Shown here: positions 4,476 through 63,995 of the stretch, piece after piece
How the letters are laid out: every line of letters begins with the position of its first letter
Numbering within the stretch: position 1 is the first letter of the stretch
Source: SAR86 cluster bacterium
GTDB lineage: Bacteria; Pseudomonadota; Gammaproteobacteria; Magnimaribacterales; TMED112
DNA length: 64,000 nucleotides
NCBI GenBank assembly: GCA_003331635.1
Contig: QOPH01000002.1
Coordinates: forward strand, 210,412-274,411
Direction of reading: 5' to 3'
Made by a program: the position numbers and the translations under genes
The notes under the pieces: generated by a model
Database searches by the model: none
What the model saw: the letters and a program-made list of their open reading frames with translations, nothing else
What the model was told of the DNA's origin: nothing

Positions 4476-6619
4476 GCCATTCTTCTCTTTACTTCAGTGA
4501 CAGTTTTGTTTTTTCTCAATAGATTTGTAATTTTGCTGAGATGTTTAGTATTTTTTACTGTATATTTTATGTTAAGTTCAATAAAGCTCTCATCTAATTG
4601 TTGTGTAGCAACACCTTGAATATTTGAATCGTTCTGTGAAATAATTTTTGAAATCTCTGCAAGCACTCCTGGTTCATTTCTGAGAGTAAGTTTGAGCGTT
4701 GATGTAAATTCTGCATCAGGATCTTGTTCCCAAATAACATCTGAACAGCTTCCTTGTTTGTTAATAAGAAATTTTAAATTTTTGCATCCGTTTCGATGAA
4801 CAGATATTCCTAATTCATTATGTACCGCTAGGCATGGGTCTCCTGAGACTGGATAGCAACATTCTGGGAAGCTTATAGCCCCGTATTTTTTTGAGGAACC
4901 TATTTTTATTTTTGATGTAATTTCTGCTTGCCTTTTAAATCCTCTCAAACCCTCTGCAAAACTTTGCAAAACAATATTACTTGTTCTTTTTCCTGAACCA
5001 ATATCAACCAAGAGTTGGTTAAGGTTTCTCACTCCTATGAGCTTAAAAACTCCTTTTAGACTTTCATCAGGGTAATCTTTTAATTCTATCCCAGCGTCTT
5101 CCAATGAATTTTCTAGCAAATCTTTTCCAAGAACTCTTAGATCAGCTAGCCGCATATTTTTTAACTGTCTTTTTATCGAATGAATTGCTTTTGGAGTAAC
5201 TACATAGTTAAGCCAATGGGGATTAACCGTCTTCTTTTTGCCTTTGATAATCTCAATTGTTTGTCCACTTTCAAGGATTGTTGTAACAGGTGATAATTTT
5301 TTATCTATTTCACACGATAAGCAGTGATTTCCTAGCTCATTGTGTATAGCATAGGCAAAATCGATCGGAGTGGCTCCCTGATTTAGGGAAAAGATTCTCC
5401 CATTTGGAGAGAATACATAAACTTCTTTCCCCTTCAGGTCAGTTTTTAGGTTTTGTAAAAATTCTTGAGATGAAGAACTACTCTTAGACATTTCTGTTAA
5501 TCTTTGAACTAACTGCCTAGATTTTGCTTGTATTAAATCATCACTAACATTAGTTTTATAGAGCCCATGTGAAGCTATTCCATAGTTTGCAAAAGTTTCC
5601 ATTGCTGAACTCTGAATTTGAACTTCCATAGGAACGCCATCAAAAGTCATCACTACAGTATGTAATGCTTGATACCCATTAGCTTTTGGCACCGCAACAT
5701 AATCTTTGAATCTCCCAACTAGTGGAGTAAAAATACTATGTATAAGGCCTAATGATCTGTAACAATCTCCAGCATTTTTCACAACGACTCTAAAAGCAAA
5801 AACATCATAAATATCTGAAAAAGATGTCTTTTTAGCTTTCATTTTTTGATAAATACTAAAAATTCTTTTTTCTCTTCCTGTAATTTTGACATCTATATTA
5901 TTTTCATGAAATTTTGTCTTTAAAACTTTTTTAACTTTTGAAATCATACTTTTTCTGCTTAGATCATTTTTCTTCAGCGCATCTTTTATTAATTGATATC
6001 TAACTGGATGTAATGTTTTAAAAGATATGTCTTCAAGATCTGTAGCCATTTTGTGCATTCCAATCTGATGAGCTAGGGGTGCGTAAAGTTCTAAAGTCTC
6101 TTTAGATTTTTTTATTTGTTTATCTCTAGGTAAGTGCTCGATTGTTTTTAAGTTATGTAATCTATCTGCCAATTTGATTATTACTACTCTTACATCTTCT
6201 GCTGTAGCTAAAGCCATTTTTTGAAAATATTCTGCTTGTCCTTGATCAATTAATTTTTCATCTAACTGAAGGAGCTTTGTAACTCCATTCACTAAATTGC
6301 TTACATTTTTGCCAAATAATTTTTTTACTTCTTTAAGAGATATTTCGCAGTCCTCTACAACATCATGGAGAAGGCCTGCAACAATCGTATCTCCATCCAT
6401 TTTTAATCCTGCTAGAATTATTCCAACATTTATAGGGTGTATGAGGAACGGCTCTCCACTTTTTCTGAATTGGCCGTCATGAGCCTTATCAGCAAAATCA
6501 ACTGCCTTTTGTATATTTTTTCTTGCGTTTGTTGCTAGATATTTTTTGGATAAGTCGTCTAACTCATAGCTAAGCTTTGAGGTTTTAGGTTTTTTAAAGA
6601 TATTTAAAGATTCAAGCAA
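4472..6619 (-). CDS. spoT: bifunctional (p)ppGpp synthetase/hydrolase
   Basis: 715 aa with the HD hydrolase motif (LLHDVVED), a RelA/SpoT synthetase core, and TGS and ACT-like C-terminal regions. It sits downstream of rpoZ as in gammaproteobacteria. Confidence 0.9.
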   Translation of the reverse strand: MLESLNIFKKPKTSKLSYELDDLSKKYLATNARKNIQKAVDFADKAHDGQFRKSGEPFLIHPINVGIILAGLKMDGDTIVAGLLHDVVEDCEISLKEVKKLFGKNVSNLVNGVTKLLQLDEKLIDQGQAEYFQKMALATAEDVRVVIIKLADRLHNLKTIEHLPRDKQIKKSKETLELYAPLAHQIGMHKMATDLEDISFKTLHPVRYQLIKDALKKNDLSRKSMISKVKKVLKTKFHENNIDVKITGREKRIFSIYQKMKAKKTSFSDIYDVFAFRVVVKNAGDCYRSLGLIHSIFTPLVGRFKDYVAVPKANGYQALHTVVMTFDGVPMEVQIQSSAMETFANYGIASHGLYKTNVSDDLIQAKSRQLVQRLTEMSKSSSSSQEFLQNLKTDLKGKEVYVFSPNGRIFSLNQGATPIDFAYAIHNELGNHCLSCEIDKKLSPVTTILESGQTIEIIKGKKKTVNPHWLNYVVTPKAIHSIKRQLKNMRLADLRVLGKDLLENSLEDAGIELKDYPDESLKGVFKLIGVRNLNQLLVDIGSGKRTSNIVLQSFAEGLRGFKRQAEITSKIKIGSSKKYGAISFPECCYPVSGDPCLAVHNELGISVHRNGCKNLKFLINKQGSCSDVIWEQDPDAEFTSTLKLTLRNEPGVLAEISKIISQNDSNIQGVATQQLDESFIELNIKYTVKNTKHLSKITNLLRKNKTVTEVKRRMA

Positions 6620-6628
6620 ATAAAACTC

Positions 6629-6880
6629 CTACTCATCATTTTCATTATCAAGAATTTCAGCTTCAGTGTCACTAACGTCTTCAGAAGAAATATTTTCCTC
6701 ATCTAGCAACCCCTCTTCAATCTCTCTTAATGCAATGATAGTAGGTTTATCTTCTTCAGGATCTACCAAAGGTTCAGAACTTGTTGAAATAAGATCTCGC
6801 GCTCTTTGCGCAGCTTTGAGAACAAGTTCGAATCTACTTTCAACTTGTTTTAAACAATCTTCTACTGTAACTCTAGCCAT
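6629..6880 (-). CDS. rpoZ: DNA-directed RNA polymerase subunit omega
   Basis: Track ORF trimmed to the internal ATG at 6880, giving the canonical [10 protein letters not shown]... N-terminus (83 aa). The acidic C-terminal tail is retained. Confidence 0.9.
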
Positions 6881-10424: not shown

Positions 10425-10624
10425 TTATGAGCAATTGAATAAATAGTATTAAATATGATTCCTGTCCCAAGTGTTCCAAAAATTAAAATTAAATAATCTA
10501 TAAGAGTTACTGCAAACAATTTTTTCCAACTCTGCTCAGGATTTACTTTTTTAAACGCAGCTATCTTAAAAAAAGTGAAAGCAAATAGGAATACAACTGA
10601 ACCAAGAATAAAAATACTTGTCAT
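10421..10624 (-). CDS. small two-helix membrane protein (67 aa), hypothetical
   Basis: Two hydrophobic helices. The start codon overlaps the pyrophosphatase stop (TAATG), and the stop overlaps the recG stop convergently. No family recognised. Confidence 0.45.
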   Translation of the reverse strand: MTSIFILGSVVFLFAFTFFKIAAFKKVNPEQSWKKLFAVTLIDYLILIFGTLGTGIIFNTIYSIAHN

Positions 10625-12633
10625 TAAAGTAATGGAGCTATCACTAGACTAACAATAGCCATAACATTAATTAATATATTCATTGAAGGTCCTGAAGTGT
10701 CTTTAAAAGGATCACCAACAGTATCACCTACAACGGTTGCTGAATGTGTATCAGTACCCTTTCCACCGAAGTTACCCTTCTCAACAAATTTCTTAGCATT
10801 ATCCCAAGCGCCTCCAGCATTAGCCATCATGAGAGCCATTAAAACACATCCAAGTAGTGCTCCAGCTAACATACCGCCAAGATGAATTGGTCCTAAAACA
10901 AAACCTATAATTACTGGTGAAAGTATTGCAATTGCTCCAGGCAATAACATTTTATTTAAAGCAGCTTTAGTTGCTATATCTACACACTTTGCATTATCTG
11001 GTTCGGCTTTTCCCTCCAGTAAGCCTGGAATTTCTCTAAATTGTCTTCTAATTTCTTCGATCATTTCAAATGCTGCATCACCAACTGCTGTCATAGTAAT
11101 TGATGAAACCAAAAATGGAATTGAGCCTCCAATAAACATGCCCATTAAAACTTTTGGATCATCTAATGAAAGCTGTTCTACATCTGCAGCTAGCATATAA
11201 GCTGCAATAATCGCTAATGCTGCAAGAGCTGCAGCTCCAATTGCAAACCCCTTCCCTATTGCTGCTGTAGTATTTCCAAGTTCATCTAATGAATCTGTTA
11301 TTTCTCTAACTTCACTTTTCATACCGCTCATTTCTGCAATACCGCCAGCATTATCTGCAACAGGCCCATATGCATCTATTGCCATTGTTATTCCTACTGT
11401 TGACAACATTCCAACTGCTGCAATGCCTACGCCGTATAAACCCGAGAAATATGTAGACAATCCAACTATACCTGCGATTACAAATAAAGGCAGAACTACT
11501 GATTGCATCCCTACACTTAAACCAGTAATCATTACAGTTGCTGGTCCAGTTTCACCAGATTTTGCTATTTTGCCAACTGGAGAATTTTCTGTATTTCCCC
11601 CTGTGTAGTATTCAGTAATGAGTCCAATTAAAATTCCACCAACCGCTCCAGTAAGCACAGAATAGAAATATTTCATTTCTATAGGAGAGTAGTAAATACT
11701 TACACCAGCAAATACAAGGAAAATTACTGGTGACAAAAATGTTCCCCATCTTAGAGCAACTGCAGGTGATCTAGACACTTGAGTTCTTACAATACCTATA
11801 CCAATCAAAGAACAAAATAACCCAGAGGCTGCAAGCCATAAAGGTAAAAACATCAAATTTGGATCTAACATTGTTGCTGCAATTGCGATTGATGCAATCA
11901 TTGCACCGCAATAAGATTCAAAAATGTCTGAACCCATTCCAGCAATATCGCCAACATTATCGCCAACATTATCTGCGATAACACCTGGATTTCTTGGATC
12001 ATCTTCAGGTATTCCAGCTTCAATTTTTCCTACTAGGTCAGCACCAACATCTGCACTTTTTGTGAAAATTCCTCCACCCACTCTTGAAAATAATGCTACT
12101 GCTGAAGCACCAACACCAAAACCTTCTAGGGCTTTTGCAATTTTATCAAGATCATCCATTACTCCGGAGAAGTAGAAAAACAATCCACCTAAGCCAACTA
12201 AACCCATCGATGCAACACATAGTCCCATGATTGAACCACCAAAAAATGATATTGATAAAGCTTGCTCTTGACCATGATTTTCTGCAGCTGTAGCTGTTCT
12301 TACATTAGCTTTTGTTGCTGAATACATTCCTATAAATCCTGCAATTGCAGATGAAAGTGCGCCAACTGCGATCGCCAAGGCTGTATACCAACCTAGTGGT
12401 GAAAGTCCACAAGCTAAAACTAAAGCTAGAACTACTGGAGCAAGGATTTTGTATTCAGTTATCATGAATACTTTAGCTCCTAAATGTATTTGATCTCCAA
12501 TTTTAACGACTGACTGTTTGCCAGCCGGAAATTTCATTATCAGTCCGTATAAAATAAATGCGAATATTAGCCCTATAAAACCTGTTGCAAATGGTCCCCA
12601 AGGGTCCATTGGTCCAATTATTAAAGTCTCCAT
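10624..12633 (-). CDS. hppA: membrane-bound pyrophosphatase (K+-dependent type by GNTTAA motif; H+ or Na+ pumping undetermined)
   Basis: 669 aa and polytopic. Motifs seen: [41 protein letters not shown], and [14 protein letters not shown]. Confidence 0.95.
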
Positions 12634-19784: not shown

Positions 19785-20724
19785 GCAAATAACAAAATGG
19801 TACAGGGCAAAGGGTCGAAATAATTTGCCCTGGCGAGAAAATATTACTCCCTACAAAGTGTGGATTTCTGAAATTATGTTACAGCAGACACAGGCTAAGA
19901 CTGTTGTAAATTATTTTGAAAACTTTATCTCTCATTATCCTACATTTGAAGATTTTAAATCTGCTTCTGAAGAGGACGTGCTTTCTCTTTGGAAAGGTTT
20001 AGGTTTTTATAGAAGAGCTCGTAATTTATACAAAGCAAAAGAAATAATCCTCAAAAAGTTTAATGGGAAGCTGCCAAATTCTTTTGAAAATTTGATTACA
20101 CTTCCGGGTATTGGCAAATCTACTGCTGGAGCTATTCTTTCAATAGCCTACAAACTACCATATCCAATACTTGATGCAAATGTAAAGAGAGTTCTAACAC
20201 GATTATTCTTCAAAACCGATAGTAATGAAAAAGAACTCTGGGATCTTTCAAGTCAGATGCTTGATAAAAAAAATGTCGATGATTTTCAGCAAGGAATAAT
20301 GGATTTAGGAGCAACTGTATGTACTCCAAAAAATGCCTTGTGTGGAGAGTGCCCATTGAACAAACAATGTGTATCGTTTTCTAAGGGAGAGCTGCCAAAT
20401 GTAAATGTTAAAAAAATTAATAAAAAAAATGTATATATTGAATTTGAAATATATGAAAAAAATAAAAAAATATTTTTAGTTAAAAATAATAAACTTGGTT
20501 TTTGGGATGGTTTATGGATTATGCCTATGGCAAAAACTAAACAACTCAAGACTGAGCTTATTCATAAACTTTCTCATAGAAATTTACATATTTCATTTGC
20601 AAATAAATCAAAAGATGAATTAAAGAGTGAAGGAAAGTGGTTTGATATTGCTCAGTTAAGTAAACTTCCCACACCAAAACCAATATCTGATAAATTATCT
20701 GTATATGTCCAAAATTTTTTGTAA
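19750..20724 (+). CDS. mutY: A/G-specific adenine DNA glycosylase
   Basis: HhH-GPD motifs (MLQQTQ, LPGIGKSTAGAI), the 4Fe-4S cluster CTPKNALCGECPLNKQC, and a NUDIX-like C-terminal domain. The start is ambiguous (19741 or 19750); both lie inside the gpmA 3' end. Confidence 0.88.
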   Translation: MKTNYKESSTGKQITKWYRAKGRNNLPWRENITPYKVWISEIMLQQTQAKTVVNYFENFISHYPTFEDFKSASEEDVLSLWKGLGFYRRARNLYKAKEIILKKFNGKLPNSFENLITLPGIGKSTAGAILSIAYKLPYPILDANVKRVLTRLFFKTDSNEKELWDLSSQMLDKKNVDDFQQGIMDLGATVCTPKNALCGECPLNKQCVSFSKGELPNVNVKKINKKNVYIEFEIYEKNKKIFLVKNNKLGFWDGLWIMPMAKTKQLKTELIHKLSHRNLHISFANKSKDELKSEGKWFDIAQLSKLPTPKPISDKLSVYVQNFL

Positions 20725-20968
20725 AAAATATCAAACAGAACTAGATGCTTTAGATATTGCTCCAGTTCCTGGTGAAAAAGGTCAATATATTAAAGATAAC
20801 TACTCCGCAAAAGCATGGTCTGATTGGTTAGATTTACAGACAATGCTTATCAACGAAAATCAACTAGATTTGTCGAATAAAGATAATAGAAAATGGCTGA
20901 ATGATCAAATGGAAAAGTATCTAAATAATGCTGACTATCAGAAGCCTTCAGGTTATATACCTCAATAG
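20705..20968 (+). CDS. yggX: Fe(II)-trafficking / oxidative damage protection protein YggX
   Basis: 87 aa. MSKIFCKKYQ...AWSDWLDLQTMLINENQL aligns by eye with E. coli YggX. mutY-yggX synteny is present. Confidence 0.9.
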   Translation: MSKIFCKKYQTELDALDIAPVPGEKGQYIKDNYSAKAWSDWLDLQTMLINENQLDLSNKDNRKWLNDQMEKYLNNADYQKPSGYIPQ

Positions 20969-22151: not shown

Positions 22152-22227
22152 GCCCAGATAGCTCAGTTGGTAGAGCAAAGGACTGAAAATCCTTGTGTCG
22201 GTAGTTCGATTCTACCTCTGGGCACCA
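22152..22227 (+). tRNA. tRNA-Phe (anticodon GAA)
   Basis: GCCCAGATAGCTCAGTTGGTAGAGCAAAGGACTGAAAATCCTTGTGTCGGTAGTTCGATTCTACCTCTGGGCACCA. It folds as a cloverleaf with a 7-bp acceptor stem, anticodon loop CTGAAAA, a GTTCGATTC T-loop and an encoded CCA. Confidence 0.95.
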
Positions 22228-22261: not shown

Positions 22262-22564
22262 TTAAAGAACTCTATCAGTAGAATATTCTACTTTGAATTC
22301 ATCACATAAATTTCTAAGGTCTTCAACTGTAAATTTTTCCTCAAAATTAAATGCTTTCCAAAAACAGCAAATAATAAACTTCGCCACATGTTTTTGATGA
22401 ACTGTCAAAAAATATTCATATTCATCAGTTCCCCAAAATTCTTTTACGCCCTCTCCCAGATCATGTTCGCAAAAATGTAGGTTGCCCTGGTTATCAAAAT
22501 CACAATGGACATTATGATTAATTTTTCCTAAATTACATTTAAATACTTGCATATTTTCCTCCAT
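22262..22564 (-). CDS. hypothetical Cys/His-rich cytoplasmic protein (100 aa)
   Basis: No family recognised. The N-terminal 35 residues carry C10, H17, H20, C21, H30, C32 and H34. It is divergent from the metal operon. Confidence 0.5.
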   Translation of the reverse strand: MEENMQVFKCNLGKINHNVHCDFDNQGNLHFCEHDLGEGVKEFWGTDEYEYFLTVHQKHVAKFIICCFWKAFNFEEKFTVEDLRNLCDEFKVEYSTDRVL

Positions 22565-22702
22565 AAATTATGTGCCCATAATTAGGCATATTGATGTGAG
22601 TAATGGGATTTGAAATAAGGATTTATTTCTATAGTTACACTTATATATATGTGGGTTTTATAAAGAAGTTCAATATTACTGATAGAATATATTTATGTTA
22701 TT

Positions 22703-22719
22703 ATACCCCCCATGGGTAT
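22703..22719. promoter_or_regulatory. candidate CsoR/RcnR-family operator (ATACCC-N5-GGGTAT palindrome containing a C6 tract)
   Basis: ATACCCCCCATGGGTAT has perfect 6-bp inverted arms and a G/C tract flanked by AT-rich arms, as in known CsoR/RcnR operators. It overlaps the ATG (22712) of the first gene of an operon that ends in a csoR-like gene. Confidence 0.6.
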
Positions 22720-23311
22720 TAGGATTTTTTTAATTTTGGCTGCTATATCATTTGGACTTGATGCAAGGCCTATTTCTTATACAGGTGGTTCAACTGTCAT
22801 GGCATTTTCAGAAAACATGAAAAATTCTATCTACTATCACTATTCGCCATCTTATAAATATTCGATTGGAATAGAAAAACTTAAAGATAAATATTTTAAT
22901 GATGATTATTCATACGCAAGATTTACATATCTAATTAATAGAAAAAATACAGAAAAATCCCAAAGAAACTTGTATTTTCAGTCAGGTATTAGTTCAGAAG
23001 GGTTAAGTGAGTATTTTTATGGTGTGCATGGAGATTGGGAGACAAGAAGGTTATTCATTGGTTTTGGATTAAAAGAAACCAAAAAACAAATACAAGAATA
23101 TTTCGAACAATACTACCAAGTTGGTATAGCACCATATCTTGGTGATTATGGTGATTTGCATACTTGGGTAATGTTAAAGTCTAAAAAAAACTCTCTCACA
23201 GAAAAATGGTCAACTTATCCAGTGTTGAAGTTTTTTAAAGGTAACTCTTTAATAGAAATTGGTTATAACAATATAACTAATTGGGATGTTCACTTAATGT
23301 ATAGATTTTAG
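22712..23311 (+). CDS. secreted protein, putative small outer-membrane beta-barrel
   Basis: 199 aa with a signal peptide (MGIRIFLILAAISFGLDA). It has repeated short amphipathic aromatic-rich segments and ends in LMYRF, with a C-terminal Phe as in OM barrels. No family recognised. Confidence 0.55.
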   Translation: MGIRIFLILAAISFGLDARPISYTGGSTVMAFSENMKNSIYYHYSPSYKYSIGIEKLKDKYFNDDYSYARFTYLINRKNTEKSQRNLYFQSGISSEGLSEYFYGVHGDWETRRLFIGFGLKETKKQIQEYFEQYYQVGIAPYLGDYGDLHTWVMLKSKKNSLTEKWSTYPVLKFFKGNSLIEIGYNNITNWDVHLMYRF

Positions 23312-23319
23312 GAGGAATT

Positions 23320-23721
23320 ATGAAAAAACTATTTTTATTAAGTATTTTTACGTTGATAACTTGGGCAGAGAACCCACACGATCATATGCATCATTCGCAT
23401 GAAGGTCATCTTCATGAACAGCTAGTAGATGGAAAAAAACTAGAAGTTGATCCGATTAGGTTTGATAACTTTGTTATGGGTCTAGAGAATTCTCAAATTG
23501 CAATCGTAAATGTCAAAGGAATGGTATGTGATTTTTGTGCCAGAGGAATAGAGAAGACATTTAAAAAAGACATAAATGTTAAAAAAATTGATGTTGACCT
23601 TAGCAAGGGAAAGGTTTTGATTGCCTACAAAAATAATAAAAAAATTAAATTTGATGAGATCAAAGAGAAAATTTTGATTAACGGTCAAAATGCAATTGAT
23701 ATGGCAATCTTAAATCTTTAA
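23320..23721 (+). CDS. periplasmic heavy-metal-associated (HMA) domain protein with His-rich N-terminal stretch
   Basis: 133 aa with the signal peptide MKKLFLLSIFTLITWA, the His-rich run HDHMHHSHEGHLHE, and an HMA fold with GMVCDFCARGIEK (CxxC). AGGAGG RBS at 23310-23315. Confidence 0.85.
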   Translation: MKKLFLLSIFTLITWAENPHDHMHHSHEGHLHEQLVDGKKLEVDPIRFDNFVMGLENSQIAIVNVKGMVCDFCARGIEKTFKKDINVKKIDVDLSKGKVLIAYKNNKKIKFDEIKEKILINGQNAIDMAILNL

Positions 23722-23726
23722 ATACT

Positions 23727-24092
23727 ATGCAAGATAGATCGGCAAATTTTTTATCTCTATTTGCATCTTCGTCAACTTTAATTTGTTGTGCGCTGCCTTC
23801 TTTATTTGTTGTTATTGGTGCTGGTGCTTCTTTTGCAAACTTAATTACAGTTTTTCCATTTCTAATTGTCTTATCACAATATAAGCTGTACATAACCATA
23901 TTTGCATTTGTAGTAATTGTTTTTGCTGGATATGTTAATTATAAAACCTATTACATGCCTTGCCCTGCTGATCCTGAATTGGGTAGGTTATGCATGCAAA
24001 CAAGAAAACGTTCAAGATATATTTACTACTTTTCTGCAGCATTATTTATTTTTGCGACAATATTTACCTACATTATTCCAATGATCATATGA
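23727..24092 (+). CDS. MerT-like three-helix metal permease
   Basis: 121 aa with three TM helices. There is a vicinal Cys pair in TM1 (LICCALPSLF) and a second Cys pair in the TM2-TM3 loop (PCPADPELGRLC). This is the MerT layout. Confidence 0.7.
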   Translation: MQDRSANFLSLFASSSTLICCALPSLFVVIGAGASFANLITVFPFLIVLSQYKLYITIFAFVVIVFAGYVNYKTYYMPCPADPELGRLCMQTRKRSRYIYYFSAALFIFATIFTYIIPMII

Positions 24093-24349
24093 AACATCCA
24101 TGTCATAAAAAACAAGTTCCTAGCCTAAAAAGAGTCGAAGGACAAATTCGTGGAATAATCAAAATGATTGATGATGACAAATACTGTATTGATATTTTAA
24201 ATCAAATTAAAGCAGTAAAAAGTGCTATAACAAGTGTTGAAGGAAAAGTATTAAAAACGCACATGAAAGAATGTGTTAAAGATGCTTTAAAAAGTGAAAA
24301 GGACTTTGACAATAAAGTTAATGAAATATTCAAATCTTTGAAAAGGTAG
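24089..24349 (+). CDS. csoR: CsoR/RcnR/FrmR-family metal-sensing transcriptional repressor
   Basis: Track ORF trimmed to the ATG at 24089 (ATGA overlap with the MerT-like stop). The sequence MKHPCHKKQVPSLKRVEGQIRGIIKMIDDDKYCIDILNQIKAV...LKTHMKEC carries C33, H58 and C62 (the x-C-H-C pattern) plus His3. Confidence 0.85.
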   Translation: MKHPCHKKQVPSLKRVEGQIRGIIKMIDDDKYCIDILNQIKAVKSAITSVEGKVLKTHMKECVKDALKSEKDFDNKVNEIFKSLKR

Positions 24350-27731: not shown

Positions 27732-28871
27732 TTAGTTTTGAGCACTGTTTTCAAAAACAGAGGATATCTCTTGCTCAATTTCTTCCTGTGTCTCATAAGG
27801 CTTTGAAATCTCTGCCCAGTCTACATTGAAGTTATCTTCAAGTTCTTGATAACTTAAAACACCAAGTTTTTCATATTTTGGTTTTACCTTATCAGTGATT
27901 AAGCCAATTCTAGTGAGATTTGGAATTATCTTAGTGAAAAGTAAGTTTTTGAAATTTTCACCTTGTTCAGATTCTTCAGCTATCTTGTGAGCATCCTTTG
28001 GAGTGTAATCAAGAAATTTAGATATTACTTCGCCTGAAATAAGTCTGTCTCTCATTACGACACAAGCTTCAAAAGCAAATTGTGCTCTATCTTCGATTTC
28101 GCTTTTGCTTAGAGTCTTTAAATAATCTTCAAGGTAATTAACTCCAAAAGTAACATGTCGCGCTTCATCTCTTATCACGTAGTGAAGAAGTTGTTTTAAA
28201 AGGCCATCATTTAGAATTAATTTCAAATTGTTAAAAGCTGCCAGAGCAAGACCCTCGATAATAATTTGCATACCTATAAACTTCAGATCCCATCTTTCAT
28301 CTGTGAGAATCTTATCCATTAAGGATTTAAGACCATCAGTTGAAGGATACTGGAAACCTATTTTCTCTTTTAAATATCTATTAAAACAATTTACATGTCT
28401 TGCCTCATCAAAAGTTTGAGAAGCTGCATAAAGTTTTGCGTTGAAGGTTGGTGCACACGAAACAAGCTGAGACGCTACTAGTAATGCTCCTTGTTCGCCA
28501 TGAAGAAATTGACTTAAATTCCAAGATACCCTGTGTCTGTCCATCTCAATTTTTTTCTCAAAGGAGAGATCGTCGTAGCCATCGAGCTCAACTTCTGGTG
28601 TTTTAAAAATATCTGAATTTATAAGAAACTGATCTTTAGGAAAGTCTTGAGACCAATCTAAATCAAAGTCCTCATTCCAATTGAGTTTTTTGCCTAACTC
28701 ATAAAGTTTTTTTATTCTGTCATCAACTACGATATAGTCCCAGTTATACGCGCCTGTTAAAGGTGTTTTAAATATTTCATTTACACTTTCAACTGCATCC
28801 TGTTCTTTTGGGTCTATTTCAGGGTACTTTGTAATTTGTTTTGGTTGATTTTTAACTTTTTTAATTTTCAT
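27732..28871 (-). CDS. ferritin-like diiron oxygenase family protein (AurF-like fold)
   Basis: 379 aa with four-helix diiron ligand spacing: HGEQGA, FDEARHVNCF, IIIEGLA and RDEARHVTFG (an E, ExxH, E, ExxH pattern). Confidence 0.7.
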   Translation of the reverse strand: MKIKKVKNQPKQITKYPEIDPKEQDAVESVNEIFKTPLTGAYNWDYIVVDDRIKKLYELGKKLNWNEDFDLDWSQDFPKDQFLINSDIFKTPEVELDGYDDLSFEKKIEMDRHRVSWNLSQFLHGEQGALLVASQLVSCAPTFNAKLYAASQTFDEARHVNCFNRYLKEKIGFQYPSTDGLKSLMDKILTDERWDLKFIGMQIIIEGLALAAFNNLKLILNDGLLKQLLHYVIRDEARHVTFGVNYLEDYLKTLSKSEIEDRAQFAFEACVVMRDRLISGEVISKFLDYTPKDAHKIAEESEQGENFKNLLFTKIIPNLTRIGLITDKVKPKYEKLGVLSYQELEDNFNVDWAEISKPYETQEEIEQEISSVFENSAQN

Positions 28872-29348: not shown

Positions 29349-31061
29349 ATGCGTTATATCTTTTTTTTATTAGCATTATTTTTTACCAATTTAGAAGCTA
29401 AAAATCAACCAAACTTCATATTGATATTAGTAGATGACCTAGGTCTAACTGATCTTCAGACTTTTGGCGGGGAAATAGATACACCAAATATTAATTCCTT
29501 AGCTGAAAAAGGTTTAATGTTCACAAATTATCATACTTCACCTGAATGTGCGCCATCCAGAGCAATGCTTCTGACAGGTATGGACAATCACAAAACAGGA
29601 ATTCCAATGATTCCCGAGGTATTGCCTAGAAATCTAAGGAAAAATAACGGCTACGAAGGGTATCTTTTGCCAGAGGCTTTAACAATTGCAGAAGTTTTAA
29701 AAAAGTCAGGTTATAGAACTTACATGACTGGAAAATGGCATTTGGGTTTTGGTGGAGAGCATATTCCGTCTCTGCCCATAAATAGAGGCTTCGATAAAAC
29801 TTTCATTCTTGATGCAACAGGAGGTGATAATTACAGCAATCATTCCTATCTACCCTACTATCTTGAAGCTCCTTGGTTTAAGAATGGTGAAGAGGTCGAA
29901 TTACCAGAAGATTTTTATTCATCAGAATTTTTCATAGATCAAATGATTGATTTCATAGATGAAGATGGATCAAAATCACCTTTTTTTGCTTATGTTTCTT
30001 TTCAAGCACAACACATACCAGTACAAGCTCCCAAGGAATTTACCGAAAAATATTTAGATCTCTATCAAGATGGTTGGAGTGCTTTAAGGGAGAGAAGACT
30101 CAAACGAGCACAGGAATTAGGAATTTTTCCTAAAAATAAAAGTGCTGTTAATTCTTTAGAGAATTACCCATGGGAAGAAGAGACTCCAGAAGAAAAAGAG
30201 CTTTTAGTAAAGAGTATGGCTGTCTTCGCTGGCATGTTAAATGCAATGGATTTTCATATAGGAAGATTGATAGAGTATTTAAAAAATAATGGATTGTATG
30301 AAGATACAATTTTTATTATTACCTCAGATAATGGACCAGAAGGCAATGACCCTAGAGATCATGCTACCTGGCGAGCCTGGTACGAAACATCCCGCTGGAA
30401 TAACAATCTTGAAACATTGGGTGAAAAAGATAGTTATGTTTTTATTGGAACTGAATTTGCACAAGCAATGGCAAGTCCAAGTCACCTTTATAAATTTCAT
30501 ATGTCTGAGGGCGGCCTGAGAGTTCCTCTTATAATTTCTGGAAAAGGTATTCCCTCAGGAAAGTATAAAGGTTTAACATTTGTAACAGATGTAGCTCCTA
30601 CAATTGCTGATCTAGCGTCTAGCGAAAAAGAGGATCAAATGATAGGAAAGTCACTTAAAGCTTTATTTAATGACTTTGACATTGATTTATACAACGAAAA
30701 CGAGCCAGTAGGTCTTGAGGTTTCTGGAAATTCAGCGCTTTTTCTTGGAGATTATAAAATCGTAAAAAATAAACCTCCTGTTGGCGATAGCAAATGGAGA
30801 TTATTCAATTTAAAAAATGATCCTGGAGAAACGCAAGATTTACGACTAATTGAACCTGAAATTTTTAAAACTTTAATTCAAAAATACTCAGAATATGTTG
30901 AAAAAAATGGTGTGATTGAACTTGGCGAATCTTATAGATGGTACGATGAAATGACAATTAATACGGCTAAAAGGCACTTCATGCCATATATATACGCTGT
31001 ATCAGCTCTTTTTTTTATATTAATAGCAACTTTAATTTATTTCTTTAGGAGAAAATTATGA
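29349..31061 (+). CDS. Cys-type (formylglycine) sulfatase with C-terminal membrane anchor
   Basis: 570 aa with a signal peptide, LVDDLG, the FGly motif CAPSRAMLLTG, GKWHLG, and the C-terminal TM segment YIYAVSALFFILIATLIYFF. Confidence 0.9.
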   Translation: MRYIFFLLALFFTNLEAKNQPNFILILVDDLGLTDLQTFGGEIDTPNINSLAEKGLMFTNYHTSPECAPSRAMLLTGMDNHKTGIPMIPEVLPRNLRKNNGYEGYLLPEALTIAEVLKKSGYRTYMTGKWHLGFGGEHIPSLPINRGFDKTFILDATGGDNYSNHSYLPYYLEAPWFKNGEEVELPEDFYSSEFFIDQMIDFIDEDGSKSPFFAYVSFQAQHIPVQAPKEFTEKYLDLYQDGWSALRERRLKRAQELGIFPKNKSAVNSLENYPWEEETPEEKELLVKSMAVFAGMLNAMDFHIGRLIEYLKNNGLYEDTIFIITSDNGPEGNDPRDHATWRAWYETSRWNNNLETLGEKDSYVFIGTEFAQAMASPSHLYKFHMSEGGLRVPLIISGKGIPSGKYKGLTFVTDVAPTIADLASSEKEDQMIGKSLKALFNDFDIDLYNENEPVGLEVSGNSALFLGDYKIVKNKPPVGDSKWRLFNLKNDPGETQDLRLIEPEIFKTLIQKYSEYVEKNGVIELGESYRWYDEMTINTAKRHFMPYIYAVSALFFILIATLIYFFRRKL

Positions 31062-32674
31062 AAAAAGTATTACTTTTTTTATTAGTGGCAGGATTATTGG
31101 TCGCTGTTTTTTGGAAAGAACTTTTTCTTAGTTTTGTAGTTATAACAGGGAAATTTAATGTTTCTGAAAATAAAGAAATTATTTGGGAAAAAGGCCCTGA
31201 AAATAGAATTGATGATAGACCTAACTTTATTGTTTTTGTTGCTGATGATTTAGGGATTAATGACTTAACATCATTTGGAAGTGGCATTGCAAATGGTAAA
31301 TTACCAACACCTAACATAGATTTCATCGCAAATACTGGAATTAAGTTTTCAAATGCCTATGCAGGAACAGGAATGTGTGCTCCATCTAGAGCAATGATTG
31401 TTACTGGAAGATATGCTACTTCAACTGGCTATGAATTTACTCCTTTACCAGATGGTATGGGGAGAAGTTTGCAATTATTTGCTCCATTCCAAAGTGTTGA
31501 GGTAAATACTGAAGCTTTAAGATCTAACCCAAAATTTGAGCTCCAAGGTCTGCCTAACGAAGAGATTACATTTGCTGATCAATTAAGCAATGCTGGGTAT
31601 CACACTACACATATTGGTAAATGGCATTTAGGTCGCGGTGAAGGTGAACATCCGAATGCCCAAGGGTTTAAAGAGAGTCTTTTAATGGCAAGTGGATTAT
31701 TTCTTCCAGTAAATGATCCTAATGTTGTGAATGCATATCTTGATCATGATCCTGTAGATAAATTTTTATGGGCAAGAATGCAATATGCTGCTTCTTTTAA
31801 CCAAGTGAAAATAGGAGAAAATTGGTTTGAACCAGAGGGATATTTAACTGATTACTACACAAATGAAGCCAGAAAAGTAATTAGAGCTAATAAAAATAGA
31901 CCATTTCTTCTATATCTGGGTCACTGGGGAGTGCATACCCCTTTGCAAGCCCTAAAATCTGATTATGATGAACTTTCAAATATTGAGGATCATACAGAAA
32001 GAGTTTATGCGGCTATGATCAAAGCCTTAGATAGAAGTATTGAAGGGATTTTAGATGAGCTGAATATTCAAGGATTAGCTGATAACACATGGATTATTTT
32101 TACTAGTGACAATGGAGGGGCTGGCTACCTTGGATTGAGATATATTAATGCTCCCTATAGAGGATGGAAGTTAAGTCTTTTTGAAGGAGGAATTAAAGTG
32201 CCACTTATCTTTTGGAAAGAGGGGATATCTGAAAAAGAGATTTTTGAAAGAGCAGCACATATCGATATAGCCCCAACAATTTATGCTTTAGCAAAAGAGG
32301 TACCAGAACATAGCATTGATGGAATAGACTTATTTAGTAACTCATCTGAGGCAATGGATAGGGCCCTCTTTTGGAGAACTGGACATAATAAAGTTGTTAT
32401 TAAAGATGGATGGAAACTTCAATTATCCGATCATCCAAAGAGAGAGTGGCTGTTCAATTTAAATAATGATCCAACTGAAAGAGTCGATTTATCTAAAGAA
32501 AATTTAACGAAAGTAACCGAACTAAAAATAATATTAAATGAACATCTTAAAAATTCTAAAGGACCTCTTTTTCAATCGAGTCTAAAAGCTAAAATCTCTA
32601 TAGATAGAACTCTTAAAGAAGTAGTTGAGGATGGTTGGGATGAAGATGAAGATTATGTTATGTGGCCTAACTAA
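31058..32674 (+). CDS. Cys-type (formylglycine) sulfatase with N-terminal anchor
   Basis: 538 aa with an ATGA overlap to the upstream sulfatase. Motifs seen: VADDLG, CAPSRAMIVTGR, GKWHLG and TSDNGG. Confidence 0.9.
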   Translation: MKKVLLFLLVAGLLVAVFWKELFLSFVVITGKFNVSENKEIIWEKGPENRIDDRPNFIVFVADDLGINDLTSFGSGIANGKLPTPNIDFIANTGIKFSNAYAGTGMCAPSRAMIVTGRYATSTGYEFTPLPDGMGRSLQLFAPFQSVEVNTEALRSNPKFELQGLPNEEITFADQLSNAGYHTTHIGKWHLGRGEGEHPNAQGFKESLLMASGLFLPVNDPNVVNAYLDHDPVDKFLWARMQYAASFNQVKIGENWFEPEGYLTDYYTNEARKVIRANKNRPFLLYLGHWGVHTPLQALKSDYDELSNIEDHTERVYAAMIKALDRSIEGILDELNIQGLADNTWIIFTSDNGGAGYLGLRYINAPYRGWKLSLFEGGIKVPLIFWKEGISEKEIFERAAHIDIAPTIYALAKEVPEHSIDGIDLFSNSSEAMDRALFWRTGHNKVVIKDGWKLQLSDHPKREWLFNLNNDPTERVDLSKENLTKVTELKIILNEHLKNSKGPLFQSSLKAKISIDRTLKEVVEDGWDEDEDYVMWPN

Positions 32675-62519: not shown

Positions 62520-63173
62520 TTAAGCAGTTTTTTTGAAGAATAAAACTATACCAGTAATGGCACTTAAAAGCGCTAGTACTGAAAAGATTTTGAGAAAAAT
62601 ATTTCCTATATTATCTCTATCTTGCCAATCCATTATGTGAAAACCCCAAAGCAAATCCCAAATTCTCCACTGAGTTGACCTTACTGCGCTTATATCTCCA
62701 GAATATGGATTTACATAAACATTTATCTCTTCATTTTTTTTGTTTTTTGATACAACACGATAGATAGGAAGGTCTCTTCCTCTGTACTCTGCTCTTTTCT
62801 TAGCCTCTGTTACTTCCTCTACTAATAAAGGTGATAAATTTGTTTTAGTCTTGACGACTTTAAGAGCATCTTCAAAAGAAATTTTATCTATTAAATTTCC
62901 GTCAAAATCAAAATATTTCTTACCTTGTGTGTCCCTTATAACAACAACTCTTTCATTGAGTCTGTTGGCAAAACTTAATGTACTTATATCTTCAACTTCA
63001 AAATTTATTTTACTGAGATCTACTGAAAAAGATGTTTGTTCCCTATACTGTTCGCCTCTAACATTCTCAATCTTGTTATAAGCAAAATAAATGCCTGAAG
63101 CAGTCCAAAGTAAGAGCTGCAGAGAAATAAATAAACTTAAATATTTATGAATTTTTCTAATAGTAAATTTCAT
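62520..63173 (-). CDS. PepSY-domain membrane protein
   Basis: 217 aa with the N-terminal PepSY-associated TM helix IHKYLSLFISLQLLLWTASGIYF. It has a periplasmic PepSY-like domain and a C-terminal TM helix. Confidence 0.6.
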   Translation of the reverse strand: MKFTIRKIHKYLSLFISLQLLLWTASGIYFAYNKIENVRGEQYREQTSFSVDLSKINFEVEDISTLSFANRLNERVVVIRDTQGKKYFDFDGNLIDKISFEDALKVVKTKTNLSPLLVEEVTEAKKRAEYRGRDLPIYRVVSKNKKNEEINVYVNPYSGDISAVRSTQWRIWDLLWGFHIMDWQDRDNIGNIFLKIFSVLALLSAITGIVLFFKKTA

Positions 63174-63197: not shown

Positions 63198-63995
63198 TTA
63201 AAAAGAACCACTTCTGTTTCTCGTGTTAGGTGGACCAAAAATTATTGAGAAAACTTCCCTACAATTTTTAGCTTTTTGAATATCTTGCATCATAGATTGC
63301 CAGCCCATGAATGTAATTTTTATGGGATTAAAAGTATTTACATTATTTACTAAACCATATTTAACTTTAGCTTTTTCTGGTTCAAAAGTTCCAAACATAC
63401 GGTCCCAAATTATTAATAAATTGCCGTAATTTTTGTCTATGTATTCTGCGTTTGCTCCGTGATGAACTCTATGATGTGATGGCGTGTTTAAGATCCACTC
63501 CAGAGGACCTAATTTCCCTACTATTTGTGTATGTCCAACAACTCCCCATAAAGTACTAATTACACCAGCAACTGCAATAATTGTTGGATCTAGGCCTAAT
63601 ATTGGTAGAACAATGAAAAATGGAATTTTTGAAACAGGTCCCAGCCAAGCTTGCCTCATTGAAACAGCAAAATTCATTTCTTCACTAGAGTGATGACTCA
63701 TATGTATTGCCCATAAAAACCTTACTCTGTGAGAGAACCTGTGATAAATATAAAAGACAAAATCGATCAAAATAAATGTCATTAACCACATAGCCCACAA
63801 AGGAACCACATTAGCAAGATCAAAAACCCTGAATTGATATAAAAATATATGCAATCCAAGCGTTGCTCCTTTTATTGCAAAGCCAATTAGGATGTTGCCA
63901 AAGAGTAATCCACTCGTGCAAAGTGTGTCTTTGTTTTTATAAAAAGATTTTTTGTTAAAACCTGAAATTAAAGTCTCAATCAATATCATGGCCAA
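63198..63995 (-). CDS. fatty acid hydroxylase / sterol desaturase-family membrane di-iron enzyme
   Basis: 265 aa with the histidine boxes HRFSHRV, HMSHHSSEE and HHRVHH. The start lies 5 nt from the window end, so an upstream extension cannot be excluded. Confidence 0.8.
   Translation of the reverse strand: MAMILIETLISGFNKKSFYKNKDTLCTSGLLFGNILIGFAIKGATLGLHIFLYQFRVFDLANVVPLWAMWLMTFILIDFVFYIYHRFSHRVRFLWAIHMSHHSSEEMNFAVSMRQAWLGPVSKIPFFIVLPILGLDPTIIAVAGVISTLWGVVGHTQIVGKLGPLEWILNTPSHHRVHHGANAEYIDKNYGNLLIIWDRMFGTFEPEKAKVKYGLVNNVNTFNPIKITFMGWQSMMQDIQKAKNCREVFSIIFGPPNTRNRSGSF

What the first reader, a model, noticed from the sequence alone, without database searches (positions are those of the whole stretch)
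22565..24349. CsoR-family-controlled envelope metal module (OM-barrel-like protein, His-rich periplasmic HMA protein, MerT-like permease) with no efflux pump, reductase or MerR
Seen in the sequence: four plus-strand ORFs are packed with 5-8 nt gaps and one ATGA overlap.
- 22712-23311 has a signal peptide, aromatic-rich amphipathic segments and a terminal ...MYRF, as in OM barrels.
- 23320-23721 has a signal peptide, the His-rich run HDHMHHSHEGHLHE, and an HMA domain with GMVCDFC.
- 23727-24092 has three TM helices, a vicinal CC in TM1 and a C-x9-C in the TM2-TM3 loop, which is the MerT layout.
- 24089-24349 is a CsoR/RcnR-family repressor with C33/H58/C62 plus His3. That H-C-H-C pattern fits either Cu(I) sensors or InrS-like Ni sensors.

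No P1B-ATPase, MerA, MerR, multicopper oxidase or RND pump occurs anywhere in the window.

Established knowledge: MerP/MerT move thiophilic metal inward toward the cytoplasm. CsoR-family repressors normally derepress efflux or detoxification genes when metal rises.

Inference: a metal-derepressed, inward-directed, three-compartment relay is paradoxical. It could be an uncharacterised Cu/Ni/Ag/Hg handling or scavenging route in a trace-metal-limited oligotroph. This is the best candidate in the window for an undescribed system, but it rests on motif-level recognition only.
Basis: partly seen in the sequence, partly recalled or inferred. Interest (0 to 1): 0.72.

Follow-up and report, generated by a model that had tools for sequence, protein, structure and literature searches.

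The report
Copper-switched three-layer envelope metal relay
A small, unannotated four-gene operon in SAR86-type marine bacteria is most likely switched on by copper, and it encodes an outer-membrane channel, a periplasmic metal carrier and a MerT-like inner-membrane protein that probably pass copper across the cell envelope.

Summary
The 86-aa protein is a CsoR of the Cu(I) type. A 17-bp CsoR operator, ATACCCCCCATGGGTAT (22703-22719), overlaps the -10 box and the start codon of the first gene. It recurs in 76 of 80 related genomes.

The 199-aa protein has no family assignment. AlphaFold models it confidently as a 12-stranded outer-membrane barrel with a conserved polar interior. The 133-aa protein is an exported HMA/CopZ-like carrier. 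The 121-aa protein is a remote MerT relative that scores below Pfam's cut-off.

Gene order is conserved in all 81 untruncated CsoR-type loci, which are SAR86, the PS1 clade, OM182 and others. Flanking genes differ. In distant Alpha- and Gammaproteobacteria the barrel-HMA-MerT triad has no csoR. There it is usually headed by a CutF/CruR-like copper-sensing leader peptide. A PepSY_TM gene is often attached in the CsoR-type loci.

Copper is therefore the likely metal, and the module is most likely induced by copper excess. The direction of transport is unresolved; MerT homology favours inward movement at the inner membrane. Induced inward relays have precedents in MerTP and CopBCD, so the "paradox" is softened. 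The system appears undescribed. I rate it a new variant of a known kind.

The parts
22676..22704 (+). Promoter. It has a weak -35-like TTACTG (22676-22681), a 17-nt spacer, a TG at 22696-22697, and a -10 TATTAT (22699-22704). The last two bases of the -10 are the first two bases of the operator.
   Evidence: Consensus of 80 unique orthologous upstream regions: the -10 TAatAT is nearly invariant, and 'TTt' lies 17 nt upstream. Window sequence. Inferred; the transcription start was not mapped.
22703..22719 (+). CsoR operator ATACCCCCCATGGGTAT, of the form TAC-N9-GTA. It contains the ATG of the first gene (22712-22714).
   Evidence: It is unique in the window, with 0.06 expected. It is invariant in L001-L005 while the flanks diverge. 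It sits at the same place in 76 of 80 genome loci and is absent from the 4 csoR-less loci. It matches the type-2 CsoR consensus ATATACCCCTNAGGGGTATAT / TAC-X9-GTA (PMC3902906).
22712..23311 (+). 199-aa exported protein, predicted to be a 12-stranded outer-membrane beta-barrel. It belongs to a new family with no Pfam or NCBIfam model. The signal peptide is MGIRIFLILAAISFGLDA|RP and the C-terminus ends in YRF.
   Evidence: AF2 gives pLDDT 85.7, pTM 0.77 and 12 strands. The best Foldseek matches are KdgM, VhGalP, FapF and intimin/invasin barrels. No family hit. The family has 519 clusters at 50% identity. Invariant residues lie on the polar strand faces.
23320..23721 (+). 133-aa periplasmic HMA protein. 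It has a Sec signal peptide (…LITWA|ENP), a His-rich stretch HDHMHHSHEGHLHE, and an HMA domain with GMVCDFC. A strong SD (AGGAGG) lies upstream.
   Evidence: Pfam HMA at 3e-7, above cut-off. G[ML]VCDFC is present in 92 of 92 loci. The profile is closest to CopZ and Cu-ATPase metal-binding domains, and further from MerP.
23727..24092 (+). 121-aa MerT-like inner-membrane protein. It has a CC in TM1 (STLICCALP) and PCPADPELGRLC in a Lys/Arg-rich loop, which is inferred to be cytoplasmic.
   Evidence: Pfam MerT E 3.9e-4, 20.9 bits against a 32.9-bit cut-off, aligned over profile positions 15-114 of 116. NCBIfam MerT E 0.002. Relatives reach E 3.5e-5. The CC and the Cys loop are present in 88 of 88 orthologues.
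24089..24349 (+). 86-aa CsoR-family repressor of the Cu(I) type, with Y32-C33, H58, C62, E79 and Q39. It is translationally coupled to the preceding gene by an ATGA overlap.
   Evidence: Pfam PF02583 at 6.7e-28. The best solved relatives are the S. lividans and Geobacillus Cu-CsoRs, at 8.8e-17 and 1e-14. Y-C-x24-H-x3-C is present in 82 of 82 orthologues.
62520..63173 (-). PepSY_TM-family membrane protein (217 aa). It is an orthologue of the gene that is fused to, or divergent from, this operon in about 27 related loci. In this window it lies 38 kb away and has no operator.
   Evidence: A family HMM built from the loci hits it at 2.7e-102. Pfam PF03929 at 7e-11. In 19 loci its start overlaps the csoR stop, and in about 7 it lies 52-74 bp divergent from the barrel gene.

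Best explanation
This is a copper-responsive operon, autoregulated by a Cu(I)-sensing CsoR. It encodes a three-compartment thiol/His relay for copper.

Regulation:
- Without copper, CsoR tetramers sit on the TAC-N9-GTA operator. The operator covers the -10 box, the transcription start and the start codon, so the genes are silent.
- Rising cytoplasmic Cu(I) releases CsoR.
- The operator and the sensor residues are shown by sequence. DNA binding and copper response are inferred from the family.

Products:
- A 12-stranded outer-membrane channel with a conserved His/Met/Asp/Glu/Arg-lined interior.
- A periplasmic CopZ/MerP-like carrier with a CxxC site and a His-rich tail.
- A MerT-like inner-membrane protein with a membrane CC pair and a cytoplasmic Cys pair.

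Proposed mechanism (inferred):
- The carrier collects periplasmic copper and hands Cu(I) to the MerT-like protein.
- That protein passes it inward to cytoplasmic thiols and to CsoR. This clears the vulnerable periplasm, as MerP/MerT do for Hg and CopC/CopD do for Cu.
- The barrel gives copper a dedicated route through an outer membrane in which TonB-dependent receptors are prominent (background knowledge for SAR86).
- Where present, the PepSY_TM partner may reduce Cu(II) to Cu(I).

The direction of net flux is the weakest step.
For: Regulator:
- PF02583 at 6.7e-28; the closest relatives are Cu-CsoRs.
- Y32/C33/H58/C62/E79/Q39 align to the S. lividans CsoR ligands and second shell.
- The ligand pattern is present in 82 of 82 orthologues.

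Operator:
- It is unique in the window, lies on the conserved -10, and is found in 76 of 80 genomes.
- It is absent where csoR is absent.
- It matches the published type-2 consensus.
- In the divergent lineage L090 a perfect ATACCCCTATGGGGTAT lies immediately downstream of a TTGACA -35 box.

Module:
- The four-gene order is kept in 81 of 81 untruncated loci with unrelated flanks.
- Barrel and HMA are adjacent in 10 of 10 distant loci, and the MerT-like gene is present in 8 of 10.

Copper:
- The HMA domain is closest to CopZ.
- Seven of 9 csoR-less loci start with a CutF/CruR-like leader. It has a Sec signal, a Cys/His/Met motif and a C-terminal PPPPRA or IPPKRPPK, against CutF's GPPPRL.
- In L091 the SD of the barrel gene pairs with the end of the leader ORF, z = -3.5.
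- PepSY_TM is linked in about 27 loci. This family accompanies copper TonB receptors.

Inward step:
- MerT homology and the Cys layout.
- Cu-induced importers CopC/CopD exist.
Against: - No experiment of any kind supports this; metal specificity and direction are inferred.
- The MerT match is below Pfam's and NCBIfam's curated cut-offs. The AF2 model of that protein is poor (pLDDT 64).
- Importing copper when copper is already high needs a cytoplasmic sink, and none was identified in the window or in the loci.
- An induced outer-membrane entry channel looks counter-productive for defence.
- CutF-like leaders can also act negatively, as CruR does, so 'induced by copper' in the csoR-less lineages rests on resemblance (short intergenic region, Sec signal, PPPR).
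- I could not check whether these genomes carry CopA, CueO or Cus elsewhere.
Confidence: 0.55

Rival explanations
1. The parts and the copper induction are the same, but the net flow is outward or the copper stays in the periplasm. The HMA protein buffers Cu(I) in the periplasm; the copper could come from a CopA encoded elsewhere, or from the MerT-like protein running in reverse. The HMA protein then hands it to the barrel, which acts as an exit valve. This would be a low-cost substitute for CusCFBA or PcoB.
For: - Both regulatory devices resemble types that switch on at high copper. That is the logic of detoxification or efflux genes.
- The His-rich tail plus CxxC site suits a periplasmic sponge.
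- The barrel is passive, so efflux down a gradient is feasible.
- No Cus or RND pump is seen in the window.
Against: - The MerT family is known only for inward transfer.
- No energy-coupling domain is present.
- Cytoplasmic Cu(I) is buffered so tightly that passive export through thiols is uphill.
- A CopA partner was not found in the window or the loci.
Confidence: 0.22
2. The MerT-like protein does not carry metal. It is a small thiol-disulfide conduit, in the spirit of DsbD/CcdA/ScsB, that keeps the CxxC of the periplasmic HMA protein reduced during copper stress. The HMA protein and the barrel do the copper handling.
For: - Two conserved Cys pairs lie on opposite sides of the membrane.
- The periplasm oxidises CxxC motifs, and copper-stress systems such as Scs work through periplasmic thiol redox (my own background knowledge, not checked here).
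- The HMA and MerT-like genes are always adjacent.
Against: - The only detectable homology is to MerT, a metal transporter.
- There is no similarity to DsbD or CcdA, and no thioredoxin-like partner in the operon.
- MerP works in the periplasm without such a helper.
Confidence: 0.08
3. The metal is not copper. The system is either a Ni/Co-responsive (InrS/RcnR-like) system or an Hg(II) uptake system.
For: - The window protein has His3 in the RcnR position, giving H-C-H-C.
- The His-rich tail of the HMA protein would suit Ni or Zn.
- MerT and MerP are the nearest named families for two of the genes.
- Some CutF-like leaders are not Cu-specific.
Against: - His3 is replaced in many orthologues.
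- Cu-CsoRs score far better than InrS, RcnR or FrmR: 8.8e-17 against 8.5e-10 and 1.5e-9.
- The Tyr/Glu second shell and the type-2 operator are CsoR-like.
- The HMA domain is closer to CopZ than to MerP.
- There is no MerA or MerR.
- Cys-rich CutF-like leaders and PepSY_TM track with copper.
Confidence: 0.08
4. The system acquires or hoards copper. It is an uptake and storage route used when copper becomes available, feeding cuproenzymes in a metal-poor ocean.
For: - The architecture reads as an uptake path: OM channel, periplasmic binder, then IM MerT-like protein.
- PepSY_TM and DUF2946 are typical of copper-uptake loci such as OprC and BfrG.
- B. subtilis CsoR also touches the uptake gene ycnJ (reference list seen).
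Against: - A CsoR-type repressor turns genes on at high Cu. That would give runaway positive feedback for a toxic metal.
- The leader peptides resemble the Cu-induced CutF type rather than the Cu-repressed CruR type, which has a long intergenic region and does not need a signal sequence.
Confidence: 0.07

Closest known systems
MerP-MerT mercury uptake pair of mer operons
   Same: - A periplasmic HMA protein with a CxxC site sits next to a small three-helix membrane protein.
- That protein has a vicinal Cys pair in TM1 and a second Cys pair in the cytoplasmic loop.
- Expression is induced by the metal that is carried inward.
   Different: - The MerT match is below the curated cut-offs, and the loop is C-x9-C.
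- The HMA domain is closer to CopZ.
- There is no MerR, MerA or other mer gene.
- The regulator is a CsoR.
- A dedicated outer-membrane barrel is added, and the gene order is HMA then MerT-like.
CopB/PcoB - CopC/PcoC - CopD/PcoD of the cop/pco copper-resistance operons
   Same: - It is a copper-induced set with one outer-membrane protein, one periplasmic copper carrier and one inner-membrane protein thought to move copper inward (PMC7558416).
- It raises the same puzzle: import within a resistance system.
   Different: - None of the three proteins is homologous. No CopB, CopC or CopD Pfam hit appears at E <= 1.
- There is no multicopper oxidase.
- Control is by CsoR or a leader peptide, not by CopRS/PcoRS.
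csoR-copZ-copA type operons (B. subtilis, S. lividans, M. tuberculosis, Thermus)
   Same: - An autoregulated Cu(I) CsoR with x-C-H-C ligands.
- A TAC-N9-GTA G-tract operator.
- An HMA protein in the regulon.
   Different: - There is no P1B-ATPase.
- The HMA protein is exported rather than cytoplasmic.
- The regulon is made of envelope proteins.
- The host is a Gammaproteobacterium, a class where MerR-family CueR is the usual copper sensor (background knowledge).
CutF-CutO-CutG (R. capsulatus) and CruR-BfrG-Bp2921 (B. pertussis) leader-peptide control
   Same: - In csoR-less relatives the triad is headed by a small ORF with a Sec signal, a Cys/His motif and a C-terminal Pro-rich arrest-like motif.
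- PepSY_TM is a frequent partner.
   Different: - The regulated genes are this barrel-HMA-MerT-like triad, not a multicopper oxidase or a TonB receptor.
- The leader is not present in the window itself.
KdgM/NanC-type 12-stranded monomeric porins
   Same: - The predicted fold and size match: 12 short strands and about 180 mature residues.
- The best Foldseek hits have TM about 0.54-0.60.
   Different: - Only about 12% identity, and no KdgM Pfam hit.
- The conserved interior residues differ, and the operon context is metal rather than sugar.

Membership tests
CsoR/RcnR family (PF02583, DUF156) | Match to the family profile above the curated cut-off | tested here: met
   97.3 bits against a cut-off of 22.8, E 6.7e-28.
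Cu(I)-sensing CsoR subgroup | x-C-H-C ligand set (Cys, then His and Cys 25 and 29 residues later) | tested here: met
   C33, H58 and C62 are present. Y-C-x24-H-x3-C occurs in 82 of 82 orthologues. These residues align to C75/H100/C104 of S. lividans CsoR.
Cu(I)-sensing CsoR subgroup | Second-shell Tyr before the Cys, and a Glu in helix 3 (allosteric network) | tested here: met
   Y32 is invariant. E79 aligns with the Glu of S. lividans CsoR in the HMMER alignment. The roles of these residues come from my own knowledge of the M. tuberculosis and S. lividans work.
Cu(I)-sensing CsoR subgroup | Type-2 operator: G/C-tract pseudopalindrome with TAC-N9-GTA | tested here: met
   ATACCCCCCATGGGTAT at 22703-22719. 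The published consensus is in PMC3902906.
Cu(I)-sensing CsoR subgroup | Cu(I) binding releases the protein from DNA | not testable with these tools
   Needs EMSA or ITC with purified protein.
InrS/RcnR Ni/Co sensors | Conserved N-terminal His as the first ligand (H-C-H-C or H-C-H-H) | tested here: not met
   His3 is Asn or another residue in many orthologues (MKNPCHK in 10 of 82). NCBIfam RcnR scores 38 bits against a cut-off of 138.
HMA domain (PF00403) | Profile match above cut-off, with a CxxC metal site | tested here: met
   31.1 bits against 24.8. GMVCDFC or GLVCDFC is present in 92 of 92 loci.
CopZ (cytoplasmic chaperone) / MerP equivalogs | NCBIfam equivalog score. CopZ should be cytoplasmic and about 70 aa. 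| tested here: not met
   CopZ_Bs scores 43.7 against 91, and MerP 17.8 against 92.55. The protein has a signal peptide and a 45-residue N-terminal extension.
MerT (PF02411 / PRK13751) | Profile match above the curated cut-off | tested here: not met
   20.9 bits against 32.9 (E 3.9e-4), and 18.3 against 150. Relatives score 24.2 and 21.9 bits. This is remote homology only.
MerT (PF02411 / PRK13751) | Three TM helices, a vicinal Cys pair in TM1 and a second Cys pair in the cytoplasmic loop | tested here: inconclusive
   The CC and the C-P/A-x8-9-C loop are present in 88 of 88 orthologues. The loop is Lys/Arg-rich, which suggests it is cytoplasmic. The AF2 topology model is poor (pLDDT 64). The loop spacing differs from the MerT spacing I recall from memory.
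mer operon | MerR regulator and MerA reductase linked to the transport genes | tested here: not met
   Neither is present in the operon, and none is seen among the conserved neighbours in about 90 loci. No ORF of MerA size in the window has such domains.
Outer-membrane beta-barrel | Signal peptide, even number of amphipathic strands closing a barrel, and a C-terminal aromatic residue | tested here: met
   AF2 gives 12 strands at pLDDT 85.7. Foldseek probability is 1.0 to OM barrels. The protein ends in YRF. Polar and apolar faces alternate along the strands. Localisation itself is not testable here.
CopB/PcoB and KdgM families | Sequence-profile membership | tested here: not met
   No Pfam family hit at E <= 1 for the window protein, and none for 47 diverse members apart from two chance-level hits.
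CutF/CruR-like (DUF2946) leader peptides (relatives only) | Under 150 aa, Sec signal, Cys/His motif, PP within 15 residues of the C-terminus, same-strand downstream gene with a short spacer | tested here: met
   Met in seven loci: L006, L008, L009 and L091-L094. The criteria are from PMC9973294. Pfam DUF2946 is only weak, E 0.005-0.02. The leader is absent from the window.

The most novel reading that the evidence does not exclude
The barrel-HMA-MerT-like triad is a self-contained copper defence route with no ATP or proton-motive-force coupling. It would stand in for CopA, CueO and Cus in streamlined marine bacteria. Copper would be handed from site to site through Cys/His ligands across the inner membrane, the periplasm and a dedicated 12-stranded outer-membrane channel. 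Direction would be set only by ligand affinity and redox. That would be a new mode of trans-envelope metal transport, with a new outer-membrane protein family as its exit or entry gate.
Probability: 0.18. Interest if true: 0.9.

Novelty: new variant of a known kind. Interest (0 to 1): 0.68.

Why it matters
- SAR86 (Magnimaribacterales) is among the most abundant bacterial groups in the surface ocean, and how it handles copper is not described.
- This operon is widespread in the group. Of the best 80 genome matches, which are mostly SAR86, every untruncated locus carries all four genes. Relatives occur in 516 species-level genomes.
- Three of its four products are annotated as 'hypothetical' or only generically.
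- It joins a sensor usually tied to P-type ATPases with an ATPase-free envelope relay.
- It defines a new outer-membrane barrel family with a conserved interior.
- The same triad has been captured by two different copper-sensing devices: a cytoplasmic CsoR and a periplasmic CutF-like leader.
- It could explain copper tolerance or copper entry in streamlined plankton.
- It offers a test case for how MerT-like proteins move soft metals.
- A cultured host now exists (HIMB1674, locus L073), so the questions can be tested directly.

Tried and rejected
- AF2 of the MerT-like protein gave pLDDT 64 with TM1 unresolved. I therefore did not use it for fold search or topology.
- A profile of the MerT-like family found no solved relative.
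- A DKTGT motif near window position 420 looked like a P-type ATPase. It lies in an amidohydrolase.
- tblastn of a Hyphomonas barrel protein against 72,556 plasmids found nothing, so there is no annotated resistance-island context.
- The SAR86 genome papers (PMC3358033, PMC11582366) say nothing on copper, CopA or efflux. A search for 'MerT-like' with 'copper' returned no paper.
- The 100-aa Cys/His-rich ORF upstream (22262-22564, minus strand) was tested as a possible fifth member. It recurs in only one other locus, so I rejected it.
- The hairpin at 22703-22719, which the scanner flagged as a terminator, is reinterpreted as the operator.


Full report
**Observation**

- The gaps are 8 nt and 5 nt, followed by an ATGA overlap.
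- Every quoted motif is present.
- Profile searches confirm HMA (31.1 bits against a 24.8-bit cut-off) and the CsoR/RcnR family (97.3 bits, E 6.7e-28).
- MerT gives only a sub-threshold but near full-length match: 20.9 bits against 32.9, E 3.9e-4, profile positions 15-114 of 116.
- The 199-aa protein matches nothing in Pfam or NCBIfam.
- No P-type ATPase, RND pump, MerA-sized reductase or multicopper oxidase is in the window. The largest ORF is 725 aa. The one DKTGT motif lies in an amidohydrolase. Twenty large ORFs that were scanned are housekeeping genes. Small MerR-like genes were not scanned exhaustively.

**Regulatory region**

This is the main addition to the finding.

- A perfect 17-bp palindrome, ATACCCCCCATGGGTAT (22703-22719), contains the ATG of the first gene.
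- It occurs once in the window, against 0.06 expected.
- It has the TAC-N9-GTA, G-tract form of the type-2 CsoR operator. The published streptomycete consensus is ATATACCCCTNAGGGGTATAT (PMC3902906).
- In five metagenomic relatives it is invariant while the flanks diverge.
- In the genome survey it sits at the same position in 76 of 80 loci. It is missing from the four relatives that lack csoR.
- A consensus of 80 distinct upstream regions shows a nearly invariant -10 (TAatAT). Its last two bases are the first two of the operator, and a weak -35 lies 17 nt upstream.
- In the window these elements are TATTAT (22699-22704), preceded by TG (22696-22697).
- The ATG lies 8 nt after the -10 and has no Shine-Dalgarno sequence, whereas the second gene has AGGAGG. 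The first gene is therefore probably translated from a leaderless mRNA. This is an inference.
- In a divergent lineage (L090) a perfect ATACCCCTATGGGGTAT lies immediately downstream of a TTGACA -35 box, which is a second solution to the same repression problem.

**The repressor**

- Its best solved relatives are the Cu(I) sensors of S. lividans (8.8e-17) and Geobacillus (1e-14). InrS (8.5e-10) and FrmR score worse.
- The best NCBIfam model is RicR.
- Y32-C33, H58, C62, E79 and Q39 align with the copper ligands, the second-shell pair and the DNA-contact Gln of S. lividans CsoR.
- Y-C-x24-H-x3-C is present in 82 of 82 orthologues.
- The N-terminal His3 that suggested an InrS-like H-C-H-C set is replaced in many orthologues.
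- Copper(I) is therefore the best-supported effector.

**The three structural proteins**

The 199-aa protein:
- It belongs to a family of about 519 clusters at 50% identity. All members are annotated as hypothetical.
- With a 66-sequence alignment, AlphaFold2 gives pLDDT 85.7 and pTM 0.77, with twelve strands.
- The best Foldseek matches are 12-stranded outer-membrane barrels: KdgM, VhGalP, FapF and intimin/invasin. TM is about 0.5-0.6 at roughly 10% identity.
- The fold is therefore supported, but family membership is not.
- The invariant residues (H43, S51, R77, N79, Q84, N86, Y88, D108, E110, H150, W152, M154, E182, R198) fall on the polar faces of the strands. This suggests a conserved lumen and possibly a His/Met metal site.

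The HMA protein:
- It has a Sec signal peptide.
- G[ML]VCDFC is present in 92 of 92 loci.
- Its profile is closest to CopZ and Cu-ATPase metal-binding domains (1e-11 to 1e-29). MerP scores 1e-6.
- The His-rich extension is specific to the SAR86-type clade.

The MerT-like protein:
- It keeps STL[IV]CCALP and PCP.DP…C in 88 of 88 orthologues.
- Its AF2 model was too poor to use.

**Comparative genomics**

- A scan of one genome per GTDB species found relatives of the barrel in 516 genomes.
- The best 80 (61-79% identity) are mostly SAR86. They also include the PS1 clade (IMCC14465), Rhodobiaceae, OM182, K189A and HTCC2089.
- All 81 loci of this type that are not cut by a contig end carry barrel-HMA-MerT-like-csoR in the same order.
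- Flanking genes differ widely.
- A PepSY_TM-family gene is attached in about 27 loci. In 19 its start overlaps the csoR stop, and in about 7 it is divergent 52-74 bp from the barrel gene. In this window its orthologue lies at 62520-63173, 38 kb away.
- In ten more distant loci (about 35-42% identity; Hyphomonas and other Alpha- and Gammaproteobacteria) barrel and HMA are always adjacent. The MerT-like gene is present in eight.
- One of these ten (L090) has csoR.
- Seven of the other nine begin with a small ORF that meets the published criteria for CutF/CruR-like copper-sensing leader peptides. These are a Sec signal, a Cys/His/Met motif, and a C-terminal PPPPRA or IPPKRPPK, compared with GPPPRL in CutF.
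- In L091 the Shine-Dalgarno sequence of the barrel gene pairs with the end of that ORF (z = -3.5), as in the CutF mechanism (PMC9973294).
- Two unrelated copper sensors attached to the same triad, plus a copper-associated PepSY_TM partner (PMC9426467), make copper the likely substrate. They also suggest the module is switched on by copper excess.

**Mechanism**

Shown by sequence and comparison:
- A CsoR-type repressor with Cu(I) ligands.
- Its operator on the promoter.
- An operon of three envelope proteins, one per compartment, that are inherited together.

Inferred:
- Cu(I) derepresses the operon.
- The periplasmic HMA protein collects copper and exchanges it with the MerT-like protein.
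- The barrel is a copper-selective passage.

Direction:
- By homology to MerP/MerT, the inner-membrane step should be inward, and thermodynamics favours this.
- The effect would be to clear the periplasm.
- This has precedents in mer operons and in CopC/CopD with CopB/PcoB, which are induced by the metal they import (PMC7558416).
- The arrangement is therefore unusual rather than paradoxical.
- I give this reading 0.55.

Rivals:
- The main rival (0.22) is outward or periplasmic handling with the barrel as an exit valve.
- Smaller rivals are a redox-conduit role for the MerT-like protein, a non-copper metal, and copper hoarding.

**Novelty and limits**

- The library I could search describes no such operon, and public records give no functional names.
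- The parts are known kinds, apart from the barrel family. The combination, the CsoR control without an ATPase, and the alternative leader-peptide control are new.
- I therefore rate it a new variant of a known kind.
- Key gaps: there are no expression or transport data, the direction is unresolved, and I could not test whether these genomes carry CopA, CueO or Cus elsewhere.

Noticed in passing
window 22696-22714: The start codon of the first gene is embedded in the operator. It lies 8 nt after a conserved -10 and has no Shine-Dalgarno sequence, so the operon mRNA is probably leaderless. The first three codons (M-G-I) are fixed by the operator half-site in nearly all orthologues.
   Followed up: partly
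window 62520-63173 (-): A PepSY_TM-family gene is orthologous to the gene that is translationally coupled to csoR, or divergent from the barrel gene, in about 27 related loci. Here it sits behind a fatty-acid-hydroxylase-like gene (63198-63995) and has no CsoR operator.
   Followed up: partly
L014:8167-10592 and about 9 other SAR86 loci (e.g. L020, L068, L073): A TonB-dependent receptor (644 aa) and/or a MerC-family membrane protein (135 aa, PF03203 at 1e-24) lie within a few kb of the operon in about 10 genomes each. Where the two are adjacent, as in L014, they may form a second, separate metal-uptake pair.
   Followed up: partly
window 22262-22564 (-): A 100-aa Cys/His-rich ORF with no family match lies 147 bp divergent from the operon. 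A homologue lies about 560 bp downstream of csoR in L057 only, so it is not a consistent member.
   Followed up: yes
window 22152-22227: tRNA-Phe lies 485 nt upstream of the operon. Together with the unrelated flanks in other genomes, this suggests the four-gene cassette sits in variable regions. There is no GC anomaly (0.29-0.32 against 0.30-0.36).
   Followed up: partly
L045, L046, L053 (PS1 clade / Rhodobiaceae Alphaproteobacteria): These Alphaproteobacteria carry the SAR86-type operon with barrel proteins 62-63% identical, the same operator and csoR. This points to horizontal transfer between classes of marine plankton.
   Followed up: no
L091:128-3664 and 10814-12000: The csoR-less triad in this metagenomic genome is bracketed by transposase genes (DDE_Tnp_1, and rve/HTH_Tnp_1 pairs in inverted orientation). 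It may be on a composite mobile element.
   Followed up: no
L006:5964-5990, L009:5955-5985: A conserved hairpin (UGAUCCU…AGGAUCA) starts at the stop codon of the CutF-like leader ORF. Its stem is extended by one extra base pair in L009. It does not cover the downstream SD, so its role is unclear.
   Followed up: partly
L016:6279-6851: csoR appears as two ORF fragments (6279-6557 and 6585-6851) in this MAG. This could be a frameshift, a duplication or an assembly error.
   Followed up: no
window 10624-12633 (-), 29349-32674 (+), 27732-28871 (-), 20705-20968 (+): Other genes in the window include an H+-pyrophosphatase, two adjacent sulfatases, an AurF-like di-iron oxygenase, and a YggX-type Fe(2+)-trafficking protein whose gene overlaps mutY.
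   Followed up: no
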